NCBI GenBank assembly: GCA_963663255.1
Contig: OY760141.1
Span: 2,765,103-2,829,102, forward strand
Direction: 5' to 3'
Length of the DNA stretch: 64,000 bases
Source of the DNA: Acidimicrobiales bacterium
GTDB lineage: Bacteria; Actinomycetota; Acidimicrobiia; Acidimicrobiales; Bin134
In this document: positions 6,799-18,043 of the stretch, one piece after another
Layout of the letters: the number at the start of each line of letters is the position of its first letter
Position numbering within the stretch: the first letter of the stretch is position 1
Made by a program: the position numbers and the translations under genes
Notes under the pieces: model-generated
Database searches by the model: none
Told to the model about the DNA's origin: nothing
What the model saw: the letters and a program-made list of their open reading frames with translations, nothing else

Positions 6799-7187
6799 GG
6801 GGCTGATCGGTTTCGACGTTGGGACCGGGGGCTGCGCTGTGCGACCCGAGTTGCTCAGACTCGCAAAACGGGGCAACCAACTAAGCGGCAACGACCGTGA
6901 ACTTCTCGCAGCCTGATCTTTCTGGCTTAGAGAAGCACCGCGACCGGTAACGGCACGCGGGGCCGGTCCACCGCAGCCCGGCAACAGAAGCGGTGGAGAC
7001 AGTAGGGACAGACCACTGACGGCGGGAAAGACCGCTGACCCCGGGGAACAGACCCGGTGGCGGGCCCCCTAGCGGGGGCCAATCGACCCGGCGACGCAGT
7101 AGCCATCGACGCCGCACACCGGGAATGGTCGTATCACAGACAGGCACCGCCCAGCGGACGGGGGTTCGATTCCCCCCAGCTCCACTC
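6799..7187 (+). ncRNA. ssrA: tmRNA (SsrA)
   Basis: The 5' GGGGCTGATCGGTTTCGAC start (6799-6805 GGGGCTG) pairs with 3' CAGCTCC (7177-7183), giving the G3:U alanine identity pair. T-arm GGGGG-TTCGATT-CCCCC, discriminator A7184; CCA is not fully encoded. Internal tag frame 6863-6916 reads GCA AAA CGG ... CTT CTC GCA GCC TGA = (A)KRGNQLSGNDRELLAA*. The exact resume codon is not determined. Confidence 0.9.
7165..7185. repeat. Left copy of 21-bp direct repeat (putative attL) within the ssrA 3' end
   Basis: TTCGATTCCCCCCAGCTCCAC; an identical 21-mer recurs at 18023-18043. Confidence 0.75.
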
Positions 7188-7190
7188 CGA

Positions 7191-7224
7191 TTACGCTATT
7201 GAGTAATTTTACTCAATAGCGTAA
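7191..7224. repeat. Perfect AT-rich palindrome (16-bp arms, 2-nt centre) at the island's left border
   Basis: TTACGCTATTGAGTAA-tt-TTACTCAATAGCGTAA. Lies 6 nt after the left direct repeat and 10 nt upstream of a TATACT -10-like hexamer (7235-7240). Confidence 0.9.
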
Positions 7225-7231
7225 TTCAACC

Positions 7232-15700: not shown

Positions 15701-17881
15701 CACGAACAAGAGGTCATCAGGCTCAACAAGGGCCTCACCGTGTTCCGCTCAGCGATGACCATCCACTTGTCTCCCGAGCGGCGCGGCTATTGGGGGTCAG
15801 ATTTCGAGTCCTTGCAGATCCACTATGACGAAACGGTCCGCCAAATCCATGTGATGGCCGAGTACGCCCAGCGGGGGCTCGCCAACATGGCGGAGGCCCT
15901 GCGCCTTGCTATCGACTACTTCGCTCTGGGAGAAGCCGAGTTCTTGCAACGCTGGCTGCCTGATCGCAGCCCGGAGCTCTCGCGGCAGACCACGCCGGAG
16001 TCGTGGCGCAACATCGTGGAAGGCCTGAAGAACCCCTCCCAGCGCCAACTCGTGGCCGACACCCGCGAGAACACCAACGTGCTGGTGTTGGCCGGCCCCG
16101 GGTCGGGCAAGACCAGAGTGCTGGTGCATCGCATCGCCTACCTGATAAGAGTCAGGCGCGAGGACCCTCGGGGCATCCTCGCCCTCGCCTACAACCGGCA
16201 TGCCGCAGTCGAGATCCGACGCCGACTGGCCGAGCTGGTGGGCGCCGACTCGCGAGGAGTGCTGGTGCTCACCTGCCACGCCATGGCAATGCGCCTCGTG
16301 GGCGCCAGCTTCTCAGAGCGCGCCGATCGCCCCGAAAGCGAGCACTTCCAAGAAGTCCTCAAGCAGGCGACCGCCTTGCTGCGGGGCGATGGGCTGGAAC
16401 AGGAGGAAGCCGAGGAAACACGGACACGACTGCTGGCGGGATTCCGGTGGATTCTGGTGGACGAGTACCAAGACGTCGGCCAAGACGAATACGACCTCAT
16501 CTCCGCGTTGGCCGGCTGGACCCTGTCAGACGACGACTCCAAGCTCACTCTGTTCGCGGTAGGCGACGACGACCAGAACATCTACTCGTTCAAGGGATCG
16601 TCGGTGAAGTTCATACGCAGCTTCGAGCAGGACTACAAGGCCAAGCCCGAATTCCTTGTCGACAACTATCGATCAACCCGACACATCATTCGGGCCGCCA
16701 ACGCCGTGATCGAGCCAGCACAAGACCGGATGAAGGCAGACCACAAGATCCAAATCAACAAAGGACGTGCCAAGGACCCCGCGGGAGGTGTGTGGGCCAA
16801 GCGAGACCCACTAGGCCGAGGGAAAATCCAGGTCTTGCCCGCAGGCGGAAATGCGATCTCTCAGGCTCAAGCAGCAATCGCCGAGCTCAAGCGTCTGAGC
16901 GGGCTCGCTTCGGACTGGGACTGGTCGAGCTGCGCCTTGATCGCCAAGGAATGGAAATACCTAGAGCCGGTTCGCAGCATCTGCGAACTCGAGGGCATCC
17001 CAGTGCAAATGGCGAATGAAGACCTCACCAGCATCTGGCACCTACGCGAGACGCAGTCACTGATCGGTTGGCTCCGCAACCGCGACTACCGCCTGATCCG
17101 AAACGCCGACGTGCGCGAACGGCTGACCAGCCAGCCCCAAAGCCCCTGGATCGAACTCCTGCAAGAGGCCATCGAGGCCCACGAGGTTGAGGCGGGCATG
17201 GCCGAGATTCCTGTGGACACCTTCATCGAATGGCTAGCGGAGTGGGGACGAGAAGCGCGCAAGCGCCAACGAGGGTTGTTGCTAACGACCGCCCACCGTG
17301 CCAAAGGCTTGGAGTTCGACCATGTGATCGTGCTCGACGGCGGCTGGGACCGCGTAGGGCGAGAGGAAGACCCCGACGCGTCGCGCCGCCTGTACTACGT
17401 CTCCATGACCCGCGCCCGCCAAACTCTTGCCCTTGGACGTCTCAGCGAACCAAACCCAATTCAAACGGCGCTGCGAAAAAGCTCGGCCGTCGCTTGGCGA
17501 AAGCCCTTCGACCTCCCACCGCCAGCACCAGAGTTGCGGCGGCACTACCGACAACTCAGCCTAACCGACGTCTACCTGAGCTTCGCCGGGCGAATGCCAT
17601 CCACCAACCGCGTGCACGCAGCCATCGCAGCCTTGTCGCCAAACGATCCGCTACAAGTAAAACAGCGGAACGGCCAATGGGAGCTACTCGACCATTCGGG
17701 CGTAGTAGTAGGAAGGCTGTCCCGAAACTTCAAGCCCCCCGAAGGGTTGGTCTGCACGCATGCAAGCGTCTTGGCCATCGCAACTTGGGCCCGCCACCAC
17801 TCAGACCCCGAGTACCAAGAGCAACTCCAACGCGACACATGGGAAGTCGTCGTGCCCGAACTCATCTTCGAGCCATCCTGA
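12749..17881 (+). CDS. Triple-fusion DEDD 3'-5' exonuclease / RecQ-family SF2 helicase / UvrD-family SF1 helicase
   Basis: 1710 aa.
Exonuclease: VSVDLEV (D25/E27), GHNFIEFDMRHL (D85), VVDTLWL, NDPEQDAKIALEVF.
Cys cluster: C268-x4-C273-x2-C276-x3-H280.
RecQ: LPTGTGKSLCYQ (aa 325-336), VLDEAHCLSKWGHDFRPDY, CLTATA, ATNAFGMGIDKPDVRLVIH, YLQEAGRAGRD.
UvrD: VLAGPGSGKT (aa 1113-1122), ILVDEYQD (aa 1235-1242), FAVGDDDQNIYSFKG, VDNYRST, TTAHRAKGLEFDHVIVL, YVSMTRAR.
A ~145-aa tail after UvrD motif VI is unassigned. Confidence 0.8.
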   Translation: MPDAAPPGGVRDQRLLEGLSRCVSVDLEVSKVTERIHSFAGVRLDTEESFVYPSAGLDRPQALAELDALADGTDFLVGHNFIEFDMRHLQAANPGLRLLEMPVVDTLWLNPLAFPRNPYHHLVKHYQEGQLITGRKNDPEQDAKIALEVFADQQKSLLEAPSDLLVAWHWLTGGQHGSGFDLVFRCLRGSPRPSDVEACEAIYARVDGICCRTHARQAADSAGEHGWSLAYALAWLWVSGGNSVMPPWVRHQFPDAGKLVRRLRDSRCEDRGCPWCQERHNARKELKRLFGFDEFRPEPAGEDGRPLQQAIVEAAMGGDHVLGILPTGTGKSLCYQIPALSRYDKTGAVTVVISPLVALMADQVTGLEAHGITSCVTINGLLSMPERSEALEKLRLGDAAIVLVSPEQLRSVSFRRSLDQREIGSWVLDEAHCLSKWGHDFRPDYRYVGRYIRERAEGGVVPPVMCLTATAKPGVKEEIVEYFAEQLGVEMRVFDGGSERANLEFVVVETTTSKKYSDIYEILSNHLPPDGNGGAIVYCATQRRTEEIANFLRELGFSADRFHAGLQPEDKKTVQRRFIEGELRAIAATNAFGMGIDKPDVRLVIHADIPSSLENYLQEAGRAGRDQKQAHCVLLFTRNDVERQFGMSARSRLTRREINGVLKALRRLSRRNNNDEVVATMGEILVNDEDTDFRRDSATDDTRGRTALAWLEEAELLSREENRVNIFPSSLRVSSVEEAKEKLESKGLDELARGRLLAVVEALIGADPDEGISTDMLMATAGLSSDQVRGALYDLERCGIASNDTALTAFVHLGVANSSKRRLVEAAGAEEELLSLMREMAPDMGIGDEAPLNLRVACQRIKDAGHNHVRPEYMARLLQGIAGDGRGEGIGGGSITVRKLDAESVRITLKREWHSVVGMAQRRRAGAARLLDHLLSCAPKGKRGTDLLAETTLGKLTEAVEGDLTLAGEAKDLRRLVDRSLVWLHEQEVIRLNKGLTVFRSAMTIHLSPERRGYWGSDFESLQIHYDETVRQIHVMAEYAQRGLANMAEALRLAIDYFALGEAEFLQRWLPDRSPELSRQTTPESWRNIVEGLKNPSQRQLVADTRENTNVLVLAGPGSGKTRVLVHRIAYLIRVRREDPRGILALAYNRHAAVEIRRRLAELVGADSRGVLVLTCHAMAMRLVGASFSERADRPESEHFQEVLKQATALLRGDGLEQEEAEETRTRLLAGFRWILVDEYQDVGQDEYDLISALAGWTLSDDDSKLTLFAVGDDDQNIYSFKGSSVKFIRSFEQDYKAKPEFLVDNYRSTRHIIRAANAVIEPAQDRMKADHKIQINKGRAKDPAGGVWAKRDPLGRGKIQVLPAGGNAISQAQAAIAELKRLSGLASDWDWSSCALIAKEWKYLEPVRSICELEGIPVQMANEDLTSIWHLRETQSLIGWLRNRDYRLIRNADVRERLTSQPQSPWIELLQEAIEAHEVEAGMAEIPVDTFIEWLAEWGREARKRQRGLLLTTAHRAKGLEFDHVIVLDGGWDRVGREEDPDASRRLYYVSMTRARQTLALGRLSEPNPIQTALRKSSAVAWRKPFDLPPPAPELRRHYRQLSLTDVYLSFAGRMPSTNRVHAAIAALSPNDPLQVKQRNGQWELLDHSGVVVGRLSRNFKPPEGLVCTHASVLAIATWARHHSDPEYQEQLQRDTWEVVVPELIFEPS

Positions 17882-18022
17882 GCCGCCCGGGAAACCCCGC
17901 TAGCTCGCTCGCCGATGGTGCTATGAGCTCCCAGTTGTTCCTATTCCATGTGTGGGAATGGATGTGGGAAGACCCGGCCAATGAAGTCAACATGTGCGGC
18001 TGATCAGTAACTTTCGACTCAT

Positions 18023-18043
18023 TTCGATTCCCCCCAGCTCCAC
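18023..18043. repeat. Right copy of 21-bp direct repeat (putative attR; displaced ssrA 3' fragment)
   Basis: TTCGATTCCCCCCAGCTCCAC, identical to 7165-7185. Confidence 0.75.

What the first reader, a model, noticed from the sequence alone, without database searches (positions are those of the whole stretch)
7165..18043. 10.9-kb integrase-less island in the tmRNA 3' end bounded by a perfect 21-bp direct repeat
TTCGATTCCCCCCAGCTCCAC forms the T-arm/acceptor 3' strand of ssrA at 7165-7185. It recurs exactly at 18023-18043, only 9 nt from the stop codon of the convergent SDR gene. This is the classical attL/attR footprint of elements that integrate into tRNA or tmRNA 3' ends and regenerate the gene.

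Deleting 7186-18043 would leave an intact ssrA immediately followed by the SDR gene.

Sampled lines inside the island are about 52-53% G+C (one sampled line is 65%), against about 67% for a sampled backbone line.

Unusually, no ORF on either strand between the repeats shows tyrosine or serine recombinase, excisionase, replication or transfer motifs. Every non-cargo ORF in the track here is an overlapping shadow frame. The element is therefore either a decayed or immobilised island, or one mobilised in trans.
Basis: partly seen in the sequence, partly recalled or inferred. Interest (0 to 1): 0.75.

Follow-up and report, generated by a model that had tools for sequence, protein, structure and literature searches.

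The report
Integrase-less anti-phage island in tmRNA gene
A 10.9-kb block of three anti-phage defence genes sits precisely inside the 3' end of the tmRNA gene of a sponge-symbiont actinobacterium, carries no enzyme for its own insertion, and belongs to an already known kind of non-autonomous genomic island.

Summary
TTCGATTCCCCCCAGCTCCAC occurs only at 7165-7185 (the tmRNA 3' end) and at 18023-18043, 9 nt from the stop codon of the SDR gene. Three contiguous genes fill the interval, and none encodes a recombinase.

- Two empty sites were found. In L142/L143, ssrA is followed directly by the SDR gene. L087 is the empty counterpart of occupied L002.
- The same island with the same borders lies in three different chromosomal contexts.
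- L002 and L003 carry tandem arrays with island remnants.
- L140 carries a P4-type integrase remnant next to the same core.

The compositional shift is real but modest: 60.6% versus 64.8% G+C, not 52% versus 67%.

The cargo is a defence operon:
- a DUF4143 AAA+ ATPase;
- an Erebus/Avs10-like STAND NTPase with a probable nuclease tail;
- a fused RecQ + UvrD helicase.

The ATPase + NTPase pair recurs in at least nine phyla, apparently mostly sponge symbionts.

Best reading: a non-autonomous island (like a cis-mobilizable element, CIME) inserted by a recombinase supplied in trans, then reshuffled by homologous recombination. Dehalococcoides ssrA islands without integration modules are a direct precedent. 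I file it as a new member of a known kind, of moderate interest.

The parts
6799..7185 (+). ssrA (tmRNA) gene, intact. Its last 21 nt are supplied by, or shared with, the island (attL).
   Evidence: ARAGORN. Rfam RF00023, 65.8 bits. It is 99.5% identical to the tmRNA of L084/L085 and 97.2% identical over window 6760-7186 (tmRNA plus 39 nt upstream) to L140.
7165..7185 (+). attL core: T-loop, 3' T-stem, 3' acceptor strand, discriminator and C.
   Evidence: Exact 21-mer. The same sequence ends the tmRNA in L002, L005, L006, L065, L084, L085, L087, L140 and L142.
7190..7225 (.). Perfect palindrome with 17-bp arms and a 2-nt spacer, 4 nt after the core and about 20 nt before the conserved start of the ATPase gene. 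It is the left end of the island and probably the operator or 5' hairpin of the operon.
   Evidence: Sequence. A copy with at most 3 mismatches lies within 120 nt upstream of the ATPase gene in 70 of 81 loci across phyla and almost nowhere else. Dyad symmetry covaries: 84% of cells are paired, and 99 cells changed on both sides against 37.5 in shuffles (0 of 500 shuffles reach it).
7232..8503 (+). Gene A: AAA+ ATPase (AAA_14 + DUF4143). The likely true start is ATG 7247. Its stop overlaps the start of gene B (ATGA).
   Evidence: Pfam DUF4143 2e-24 and AAA_14 1.5e-18. PADLOC PDC-S01 1.9e-159. It lies directly upstream of B in 80 of 83 related loci, at 55-92% identity.
8500..12666 (+). Gene B: Erebus/Avs10-like STAND (NACHT-type) NTPase, DUF8371. 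It has a hypervariable central region (about 9950-12060) and a C-terminal D..ExK nuclease-like domain.
   Evidence: NCBIfam antiphage_EruA E 4.6e-270, 899.7 bits against a cut-off of 1000. PF28130 on homologues. Walker A GDPGSGKT, Walker B LFIDGLDE and invariant D1291/E1304/K1306. C-terminal model pLDDT 72; its weak Foldseek hits are almost all PD-(D/E)xK nucleases. The centre cannot be aligned between strains whose flanks are 98% identical.
12749..17881 (+). Gene C: 1710-aa fusion of a RecQ-family SF2 helicase core (residues about 280-660) and a UvrD/PcrA-type SF1 helicase (about 1095-1562). Residues 1-280, 670-1090 and 1563-1710 are unannotated.
   Evidence: Pfam. PADLOC DpdF 7e-115, PsyrT and GajB. 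PDB RecQ 4tmu 3e-64 and UvrD 3lfu 2e-33. The full gene is present only in the closest relatives: L001, L002, L003, L005, L006, L137 and L140, with a contig-truncated copy in L084.
17946..17970 (+). Conserved right-end motif CCATGTGTGGGAATGGATGTGGGAA (two TGTGGGAA direct repeats plus an inverted TTCCCA), 53 nt before attR. It is a candidate recombinase or accessory-protein binding site.
   Evidence: It is conserved in six of the seven attR or internal att ends aligned (L001 departs at two bases). One of these is L003, where the adjacent gene is a different one (DUF4268) and the surrounding sequence is not homologous. It is unique in the window. A possible hairpin shows no covariation.
18023..18043 (+). 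attR core: the displaced copy of the tmRNA 3' end and the right border of the island.
   Evidence: Homology of L001 and L002 to the window stops exactly at 18043. The 19-nt CGATTCCCCCCAGCTCCAC is identical in all 7 attR or internal att copies, while the adjacent 141 nt are only 79-84% identical.
18053..18832 (-). SDR gene, the chromosomal flank. It is not part of the island.
   Evidence: Pfam. Its orthologue abuts the tmRNA directly in L142/L143.

Best explanation
Window 7186-18043 is a true site-specifically integrated genomic island in the T-loop-to-3'-end segment of ssrA. It is non-autonomous: it carries both att ends but no recombinase.

**How it got there (inferred).**
- A circular form carried an attP made of the right end (with the TGTGGGAA motif), the 19-23-bp core and the left end (the palindrome).
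- This recombined with the tmRNA T-arm. The crossover lay at or 3' of T-loop position 3.
- The island-borne copy restored the tmRNA 3' end, and the original end was displaced to 18023-18043.
- The recombinase was supplied in trans. The most likely source is a P4-type tyrosine integrase of a co-resident or tandem ssrA island. A large serine recombinase is not excluded.

**What happened afterwards (shown by comparison).** Parts of the island have been exchanged among related symbiont lineages by homologous recombination.

**Cargo.** The island carries one anti-phage operon.
- B is an Erebus/Avs10-type STAND sensor. By analogy with that family, it would bind a phage protein through its variable centre, oligomerise and activate its C-terminal nuclease.
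- A is a DUF4143 AAA+ ATPase, translationally coupled to B and preceded by a conserved palindromic operator or hairpin.
- C is a lineage-specific RecQ + UvrD helicase added downstream.
For: **Shown**
- Exact, unique 21-bp repeat at the tmRNA end and at the island end.
- Empty sites: L142/L143 and L087.
- In L003 the sequence right after attR is identical to the sequence right after the tmRNA in empty L087. The insertion is therefore precise to the base.
- The same island with the same borders lies in three chromosomal contexts: window/L005, L002/L003 and L001/L006.
- Units without an integrase were inserted more than once.
  - L003 reads: remnant of the C 3' end, att, full island, att.
  - In L002 the attR is followed by a second palindrome, an A start and a fragment of B.
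  - In L140 the attR is followed by a palindrome remnant.
- Some attR copies read TACGATT where the tmRNA reads TTCGATT. This places the crossover inside or 3' of the T-loop.
- The 19-nt attR core is invariant in 7 copies, while the neighbouring 141 nt are 79-84% identical.
- L033 carries the same island type at a tRNA-Ala whose 3' end differs from the core at 1 of 21 positions.
- No recombinase was detected.
- An integrase of the right kind exists at this core.
  - L140 has a P4-type integrase N-terminus starting 9 nt after the core (Arm-DNA-bind_3 2.9e-12; 40% identical to the L017 integrase).
  - Five of 10 ORFs next to the same 19-mer in IMG/VR contigs are tyrosine integrases.
- Horizontal exchange is visible in identity profiles.
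  - Window versus L084: identity is mostly 97-99% up to the tmRNA, drops to 78-92% exactly at attL, is lost in the centre of B, and returns to 97-98% inside C.
  - Window versus L002: the backbone is 84-93% identical but island positions 10001-17600 are 88-98% (mostly 93-98%).
- Cargo identity. Family function from PMC13581612.

**Precedent**
- Fifteen Dehalococcoides ssrA islands without an integration module were interpreted as possible cis-mobilizable elements (PMC3146451).
Against: - No cognate intact integrase was found. Only 64 kb of the 3.5-Mb genome is visible.
- No circular junction or excision product can be checked with the tools available.
- The L140 island has a different right end, without the TGTGGGAA motif. 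Its integrase remnant therefore need not be the one that moves the A-B-C unit.
- On the left, only 4 nt separate the core from the operon's palindrome. There is little room for classical arm-type sites on that side.
- The clearest recent exchange (window versus L084) ends inside gene C. It is therefore homologous recombination, not site-specific recombination.
- attR conservation could also come from gene conversion against the tmRNA gene.
Confidence: 0.6

Rival explanations
1. Immobilised relic. The island entered once with its own integrase next to ssrA. The integrase was then lost. Everything since is vertical descent plus homologous recombination and deletions. The att sites are fossils.
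For: - Every A-B-C copy lacks an integrase and shares the same core-palindrome junction.
- L140 shows that integrases at this site do decay.
- The recent allele exchange between the window and L084 has its right breakpoint inside C, so it is homologous.
- Empty sites could in principle arise by deletion between the 21-bp repeats.
Against: - The integrase-less core-palindrome junction recurs at internal att sites of tandem arrays in L003, L002 and L140. Units without an integrase were therefore inserted next to one another.
- The attR core is perfectly conserved in 7 copies, although the neighbouring non-coding DNA has diverged by about 20%.
- The same island type sits at a tRNA-Ala with a near-identical core in L033.
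- The island lies in three different flank contexts.
Confidence: 0.3
2. Self-mobilising module. The ATPase, the NTPase-nuclease (and the helicase) themselves catalyse insertion, so that the defence operon doubles as a homing-type element.
For: - Two-gene A-B units with no room for a recombinase are bounded by direct repeats at unrelated targets in other phyla:
  - L031, 32 bp;
  - L072/L073, 18-22 bp that include the stop codon of the upstream gene;
  - L043, 119 bp in three copies;
  - L079, 111 bp of the 3' end of an nth-like gene, in three copies.
- L010 carries the pair in a larger (12.6-kb) integrase-less island bounded by a 47-bp tRNA-Met repeat.
- B carries a PD-(D/E)xK-like domain.
Against: - Most of the 80 loci show no flanking repeat and no tRNA.
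- The only conserved non-coding element lies at one end only, so there are no terminal repeats.
- Targets and repeat lengths are heterogeneous, as expected for hitch-hiking on different recombinases.
- Recombinases lie next to the module in L017, L026, L037 and L051.
- EruA-like genes on proteobacterial plasmids are ordinary stand-alone defence genes.
- No known site-specific integration chemistry uses these domains (established knowledge).
Confidence: 0.04
3. Not an island. The second 21-mer is a chance repeat or a local duplication, and the three genes are ordinary chromosomal genes.
For: The compositional shift is small, about 4 points of G+C.
Against: - No match in 100 shuffles.
- Precise empty sites in two lineages.
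- Homology with relatives breaks exactly at the repeat ends.
Confidence: 0.01

Closest known systems
Dehalococcoides ssrA genomic islands without an integration module (McMurdie et al. 2011, PMC3146451)
   Same: - The island lies in the tmRNA gene.
[quoted passage not shown]
- Tandem arrays lie downstream of ssrA.
- A conserved motif lies upstream of the repeat.
- Many islands there (15) lack any integration module and were read as possible cis-mobilizable elements or fixed relics.
   Different: - The autonomous islands there carry a serine recombinase (DsiB) module. Here the only recombinase trace at the site is a P4-type tyrosine integrase remnant (L140).
- The cargo there is reductive dehalogenase genes. 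Here it is an anti-phage operon.
- The host is a different phylum.
Cis-mobilizable elements (CIMEs) formed by accretion next to ICEs/IMEs (concept cited in PMC3146451 and reviewed in PMC5704250)
   Same: The element is flanked by functional-looking att sites, encodes neither recombination nor transfer functions, and is found in tandem with related elements.
   Different: - No adjacent autonomous helper element is present in this window.
- Mobilisation has not been shown.
- The helper is unidentified.
Classical tDNA islands as defined by Islander (PMC4383910), for example P4-type integrase islands at ssrA
   Same: An intact tDNA plus a displaced 3' fragment in direct orientation mark the ends. 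The att lies in the T-stem/loop region. tmRNA is the most enriched target.
   Different: The definition requires an integrase gene inside the island, and none is present. Islander would not report this island.
Erebus / Hypnos / bNACHT64 = Avs10 anti-phage STAND NTPases (PMC13581612)
   Same: Gene B matches the NCBIfam EruA model over its full length (E 4.6e-270). It has NACHT-type Walker motifs, a long variable sensor region and a nuclease-like terminal domain.
   Different: - The score (899.7 bits) is below the equivalog cut-off of 1000.
- Here the gene is always translationally coupled to an upstream DUF4143 AAA+ ATPase with a conserved palindrome. In this lineage a RecQ + UvrD helicase follows it.
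- The EruA-like genes inspected on plasmids stand alone.
Tycheposon-type tRNA/tmRNA island arrays in Prochlorococcus (bioRxiv 10.1101/2020.12.28.424599)
   Same: Successive integrations at one tDNA push older elements inwards. Partial tDNAs and degenerate remnants are left behind. The cargo is adaptive or defensive.
   Different: Tycheposons are defined by their own integrase, and often by replication genes. This unit has neither.

Membership tests
tDNA-integrated genomic island (Islander definition) | An intact tRNA/tmRNA gene plus a displaced 3' fragment of it in the same orientation, marking the two ends | tested here: met
   tmRNA at 6799-7185. Exact 21-nt 3' fragment at 18023-18043 on the same strand.
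tDNA-integrated genomic island (Islander definition) | A (tyrosine) integrase gene inside the island | tested here: not met
   Pfam on the three genes that fill the island, plus an integrase HMM and a serine-recombinase motif search on all six-frame ORFs: none found.
tDNA-integrated genomic island (Islander definition) | Sporadic occurrence: related genomes carry a precise deletion (empty site) | tested here: met
   L142/L143 (tmRNA, 6 nt, SDR stop codon). L087 against L002.
tDNA-integrated genomic island (Islander definition) | att crossover in a canonical sublocation (anticodon loop or T-stem/loop region) | tested here: met
   The identity block begins at the first base of the T-loop. The TACGATT variants place the crossover at or 3' of loop position 3.
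Cis-mobilizable / non-autonomous integrative element | Bounded by att sites while encoding no recombination or transfer function | tested here: met
Cis-mobilizable / non-autonomous integrative element | att sites shared with an autonomous element whose integrase can act on them | tested here: inconclusive
   - L140 has a P4-type integrase remnant 9 nt from the same core.
- Tyrosine integrases lie next to the same 19-mer in 5 IMG/VR contigs.
- No intact cognate integrase was found in this clade.
- The right end of the L140 island differs.
Cis-mobilizable / non-autonomous integrative element | Excision or mobilisation when the helper recombinase is present | not testable with these tools
   This needs read-level data or an experiment.
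Dehalococcoides-type ssrA-GI | DsiB-type large serine recombinase integration module next to attL | tested here: not met
   No resolvase or large serine recombinase motif in the window or in any ssrA-linked locus. Pfam on the island genes agrees.
Erebus (EruA) / Avs10 anti-phage STAND NTPase | Match to the curated EruA model at its cut-off | tested here: inconclusive
   NF058535: E 4.6e-270, 899.7 bits, full-length alignment, but the curated cut-off is 1000 bits.
Erebus (EruA) / Avs10 anti-phage STAND NTPase | P-loop NTPase with Walker A and B motifs, plus an effector domain | tested here: met
   - Invariant GxxGxGKT and DGLDE motifs.
- Invariant D1291, E1304 and K1306.
- Weak fold matches to PD-(D/E)xK nucleases.
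- The nuclease assignment itself is moderate in strength.
Erebus (EruA) / Avs10 anti-phage STAND NTPase | Protection against phage; activation by the major capsid protein | not testable with these tools
   Reported for family members in PMC13581612. Not tested for this protein.

The most novel reading that the evidence does not exclude
The DUF4143-ATPase + Erebus-like pair may be a self-inserting, homing-type defence cassette that needs no dedicated integrase.

In several phyla the two genes alone are bounded by direct repeats of the 3' end of a host gene. In three Acidimicrobiia lineages they sit at tRNA or tmRNA 3' ends without any recombinase.

A weaker and more probable form (about 0.3) is that they are a pan-phylum family of non-autonomous defence cassettes in sponge microbiomes, parasitising whatever site-specific recombinases are resident.
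Probability: 0.05. Interest if true: 0.85.

Novelty: new member of a known kind. Interest (0 to 1): 0.42.

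Why it matters
- It is a clean, base-precise example of a defence island that keeps both att ends but no recombinase. Empty, occupied, tandem and chimeric states are all observable in natural populations of uncultured sponge symbionts. 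That makes the question of whether such islands are mobilised in trans directly testable on existing long-read metagenomes.
- Integrase-dependent island finders miss this class by construction.
- An Erebus/Avs10-type sensor is obligatorily paired with a DUF4143 ATPase and a conserved operator across at least nine phyla. Its sensor region is hypervariable between near-identical strains. This points to a widely shared, fast-evolving immune module in sponge microbiomes.

Tried and rejected
- **Exact-sequence look-ups** of the window's SDR gene (tried twice, with V and with M as first residue) and of gene B found nothing on record.
- **A genome scan with the CbtA protein** found no relative. Relatives were reached instead through gene B, CbtA and SDR homologues.
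- **The right-end motif** was scanned in IMG/VR, with 0 hits, and in metagenome contigs, with 2 hits. One is an L005-like copy. The other (L136) lies next to a tRNA-Ser, has no integrase within the about 2 kb of sequence held on that side, and was left unexplained.
- **Terminal inverted repeat idea.** I tested whether the palindrome also occurs at the right end of the module. It does not, so this was rejected.
- **Sequence search of B against the PDB** gave no hit. For A there was only a spurious P-loop match.
- **The simple promoter and terminator scan** was uninformative.
- **Rfam** found nothing except the tmRNA and one tRNA.
- **The consensus fold of the right end** showed no covariation.
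- **Candidate integrases** downstream of B in L004, L033, L065 and L010 turned out to be methylase, KAP NTPase, NYN, IS transposase, MacB and similar proteins.
- **Williams 2002**, on tDNA sublocations, is not held in the library.

Full report
**1. The observation**

- The 21-mer TTCGATTCCCCCCAGCTCCAC occurs exactly twice in the window, at 7165-7185 and 18023-18043. This holds even with 3 mismatches allowed, and no shuffle produced a match.
- The first copy ends a tmRNA gene. ARAGORN places it at 6799-7185 with tag GNDRELLAA, and Rfam RF00023 scores 65.8 bits.
- Read against the gene, the repeat covers the T-loop (TTCGATT), the 3' T-stem (CCCCC), the 3' acceptor strand (CAGCTCC), the discriminator A and one C.
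- The second copy lies 9 nt from the stop codon of a convergent SDR gene at 18053-18832.
- Three plus-strand ORFs fill the interval: 7232-8503, 8500-12666 and 12749-17881. The gaps are 46, 82 and 141 nt.
- The composition differs, but modestly.
  - G+C is 60.6% in the island and 64.8% elsewhere. Other 10.8-kb windows range from 64.0 to 65.9%.
  - GC3 is lower, mainly in the middle gene.
  - The tetranucleotide distance is 2 to 2.7 times background.

**2. Gene content**

- **Gene A** is an AAA_14 + DUF4143 ATPase. Its best PADLOC match is the candidate defence gene PDC-S01, at 1.9e-159.
- **Gene B** (1388 aa) had no hit in the local Pfam copy, but its homologues carry PF28130/DUF8371.
  - It matches NCBIfam 'NACHT domain-containing antiphage protein EruA' over its full length: E 4.6e-270, 899.7 bits, cut-off 1000.
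  - Erebus, Hypnos and bNACHT64 are now grouped as Avs10. This STAND family is reported to sense the phage major capsid protein (PMC13581612 and PMC12803255).
  - An alignment of 19 homologues shows invariant Walker A and B motifs and an invariant D..ExK motif near the C-terminus.
  - A model of the last 209 residues has pLDDT 72. Its Foldseek matches are weak (E 0.01-0.2) but almost all are PD-(D/E)xK nucleases.
- **Gene C** (1710 aa) fuses a RecQ-type helicase core with a UvrD/PcrA-type helicase.
- **No recombinase was found.**
  - None of the three proteins has a recombinase, excisionase, replication or transfer domain.
  - Thirty other window genes scanned by Pfam are metabolic or housekeeping genes.
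  - I built an integrase HMM from five Pfam-confirmed integrases and iterated it. I also ran a serine-recombinase motif search. Neither found anything in the six-frame ORFs of the window or of any ssrA-linked relative.

**3. Relatives, borders and empty sites**

Homologues of B, CbtA and the SDR gene led to contigs of related uncultured Acidimicrobiia. Several record titles carry sponge-symbiont genus names such as Ca. Poriferisocius.

- *Same island, same borders.*
  - L001, L002, L005/L137 and L006 carry A-B-C between the tmRNA end and a second core copy.
  - L003 carries it between an internal att copy and a terminal core copy, with no tmRNA gene in the sequence held.
  - Homology of L001 and L002 to the window ends exactly at 18043.
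- *Three right-hand contexts.* These are SDR or HhH-GPD/CorC/YbeY/PhoH (window, L005), GntR/SDR250/ACAD (L002, L003), and a third flank shared by L001 and L006.
- *Empty sites.*
  - L087 has CbtA, tmRNA and GntR. Its flanks are 95.5% and 97.6% identical to occupied L002.
- L142/L143 have smpB, tmRNA, 6 nt, then the stop codon of the SDR orthologue. Window 6759-7186 and 18023-18848 both map onto that one junction.
- *Base-level precision.* The sequence right after attR in L003 is identical to the sequence right after the tmRNA in empty L087.

**4. Evidence for repeated integration without an integrase**

- L003 holds, in order: a remnant of the C 3' end, an att copy (TACGATT variant), a full island plus a DUF4268 gene, and another att copy.
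- In L002 the attR is followed by a second palindrome, an A start and a fragment of B. The flank seen in L087 resumes after that.
- In L140 the attR is followed by a degenerate palindrome fused to the SDR end.
- So the junction 'core, 4-6 nt, palindrome' is a true island end. It recurs at the internal att sites of these arrays, and no integrase is attached to it.
- The 19-nt core CGATTCCCCCCAGCTCCAC is identical in all seven attR or internal copies. The adjacent 141-nt right end is only 79-84% identical to the window's.
- A 25-nt motif lies 53 nt upstream of attR (window 17946-17970). It is conserved in six of the seven right ends aligned, including the L003 end where the neighbouring gene and sequence differ. 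In the window it occurs nowhere else.
- L033 carries A, B and fragments of C next to a tRNA-Ala. Its 3' end, TTCGATTCCCGCCAGCTCCAC, differs from the core at one base. That is what a sequence-directed recombinase using a secondary site would produce.

**5. Which recombinase?**

- L140 has a tmRNA region 97.2% identical to the window's (window 6760-7186), and its SDR protein is 92% identical.
  - It carries a 6.9-kb island between the same two exact 21-mers.
  - Nine bases after the core starts the N-terminus of a P4-type integrase. It matches Arm-DNA-bind_3 at 2.9e-12 and is 40% identical to the intact integrase of L017. It is truncated after roughly 70 residues.
  - After it come an AbiEii-like gene, the last 190 nt of B and a full C that is 93.3% identical to the window's.
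  - Its right end differs and lacks the TGTGGGAA motif.
- The 20 nt that follow attR in L005 resemble the start of this integrase gene at about 18 of 20 positions. This judgement is by eye.
- Elsewhere, the same 19-mer occurs in 47 IMG/VR contigs. Five of the ten adjacent ORFs tested are tyrosine integrases with arm-binding domains.
- These results make a tyrosine integrase the likeliest agent.
- The Dehalococcoides precedent uses a serine recombinase at a mid-T-loop site with a 20-bp repeat (PMC3146451). The recombinase class therefore remains an inference.

**6. Horizontal exchange**

- Window versus L084:
  - identity is mostly 97-99% (two 400-nt windows at 91-94%) over 6.8 kb of left flank and the tmRNA;
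  - it falls to 78-92% exactly at attL;
  - it is lost altogether over 10.0-12.0 kb, the centre of B;
  - it returns to 97-98% from about 14.4 kb, inside C.
- Window versus L002: the backbone is 84-93% identical, but island positions 10001-17600 are 88-98% (mostly 93-98%).
- Segment identities do not follow tmRNA identity.
- The island is therefore a mosaic that moves between lineages. At least part of that movement is homologous recombination anchored in the conserved tmRNA gene and the helicase gene.

**7. Wider distribution of the cargo**

- A alignment-based scan of GTDB species genomes confirmed 494 loci encoding relatives of B by tblastn. The best 80 come from Acidimicrobiia, Chloroflexota, Latescibacterota, Acidobacteriota, Gammaproteobacteria, Gemmatimonadota, Nitrospinota, Tectimicrobiota, Opitutales and Rhodothermales MAGs.
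- A lies directly upstream of B in 80 of 83 loci. C is present only in the nearest relatives.
- The palindrome upstream of A has the core TTGAGTAA-nn-TTACTCAA.
  - It is found in 70 of 81 loci and almost nowhere else.
  - Its outer arms change while keeping dyad symmetry. In 99 cells both sides changed, against 37.5 in shuffles, and 0 of 500 shuffles reached that count.
  - G.T pairs outnumber A.C pairs 58 to 28. This hints at a plus-strand hairpin but does not exclude a dimer-bound operator.
- EruA-like genes on proteobacterial plasmids have no DUF4143 partner.
- Recombinases lie next to the module in only a few loci:
  - L017, an intact P4-type integrase directly upstream of A;
  - L026, a tyrosine integrase fragment;
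  - L037, a large serine recombinase;
  - L051, a resolvase.

**8. Unexplained residue**

- In several other phyla the A-B pair alone is bounded by direct repeats, with no room for a recombinase:
  - L031, 32 bp;
  - L072/L073, 18-22 bp that include the stop codon of the upstream gene;
  - L043, 119 bp in three copies;
  - L079, 111 bp of the 3' end of an nth-like gene, in three copies.
- L010 holds A-B in a 12.6-kb tRNA-Met island with a 47-bp repeat and no integrase.
- The simplest reading is repeated hitch-hiking on resident recombinases, or Campbell-type insertion of circular DNA.
- A self-inserting module is not excluded but has little support. There are no terminal repeats, the targets are heterogeneous, and no known chemistry fits.

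**9. Verdict**

- The island works like a classical tDNA island. However, it fails the integrase criterion of that definition. It fits the known class of non-autonomous (cis-mobilizable-like) att-bounded islands, which has a close ssrA precedent in Dehalococcoides.
- It is a new member of a known kind.
- Its main value is as a well-resolved natural system for testing trans-mobilisation, and as a pointer to a widespread ATPase-coupled variant of the Erebus/Avs10 defence module.

Noticed in passing
window 7190-7225; the same position in L002-L082: A 17-bp-arm palindrome (core TTGAGTAA-nn-TTACTCAA) lies just upstream of the DUF4143 ATPase gene. It is conserved across at least nine phyla. Its outer arms covary so that symmetry is kept, and G.T pairs outnumber A.C pairs 58 to 28. 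It is either an operator for a dimeric regulator or a plus-strand hairpin.
   Followed up: partly
window about 9950-12060 (centre of gene B): The central region of the Erebus-like protein cannot be aligned between strains whose flanks are mostly 97-99% identical (window versus L084). It is 66-73% identical to L005 and 94-97% to L002. This is a hypervariable, recombining sensor region.
   Followed up: partly
L031 8612/14192; L073 8365/14108; L072 8255/14113; L043 2203/8008; L079 3504/9523/11548; L010 7490/20089: ATPase + Erebus-like two-gene units in other phyla are bounded by direct repeats of 18-119 bp. In at least L072/L073 and L079 the repeat is the 3' end of the upstream host gene, and some repeats occur in three tandem copies. 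There is no room for a recombinase. L010 is a 12.6-kb tRNA-Met island with a 47-bp repeat and no integrase.
   Followed up: partly
L004-L083: The A-B module is found in MAGs of many phyla. Several record titles carry sponge-symbiont names. Some genomes hold two copies (L010 and L016; L056 and L073; tandem in L081; the L042 and L051 copies lack the ATPase gene). This points to cross-phylum spread within one habitat.
   Followed up: partly
L033 8557-8631 and downstream: The same island type (A, B and fragments of C) sits next to a tRNA-Ala. Its 3' end differs from the tmRNA core by one base, so it is probably a secondary attachment site.
   Followed up: partly
L140 10841-17737: A chimeric island lies at the same att site. 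It holds a truncated P4-type integrase N-terminus 9 nt after the core, an AbiEii-like gene, the last 190 nt of B and a full C. Its right end is unrelated to the window's. A palindrome remnant lies between attR and the SDR gene.
   Followed up: yes
window 5937-6798 versus L005, L006, L065, L140, L142: In most relatives smpB lies next to ssrA on its 5' side (about 2 kb away in L065). In the window, L002 and L084-L087 the neighbour is CbtA, and homology to the smpB-type genomes starts only 39 nt before the tmRNA. No smpB is present anywhere in the 64-kb window. A rearrangement breakpoint therefore lies at the 5' edge of ssrA.
   Followed up: partly
window 18044-18914 versus L005 12393-12938 and L065: The SDR gene next to attR is absent from the otherwise syntenic L005 and L065. 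In L005 the 546 nt that take its place begin with about 20 nt resembling the start of the L140 integrase gene.
   Followed up: partly
window 6887-6916 (tmRNA tag); L002, L087, L142: Closely related lineages encode different tmRNA tag peptides: GNDRELLAA versus DTDRVPLAA.
   Followed up: no
L136 4800-4969: The right-end motif CCATGTGTGGGAACGAATGTGGGAA occurs once more, in inverted orientation, 55 nt downstream of a tRNA-Ser in an unrelated metagenome contig. No integrase lies within the about 2 kb of sequence held on that side.
   Followed up: partly
L004 14469-18069: In a Ca. Poriferisocius genome the A-B pair is preceded by a degenerate att-like sequence (TTCGATCAACCCCAGCTCCAT). It is followed by an N6-methylase/Eco57I-like gene and a KAP NTPase instead of the helicase, so the third gene is variable.
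   Followed up: partly
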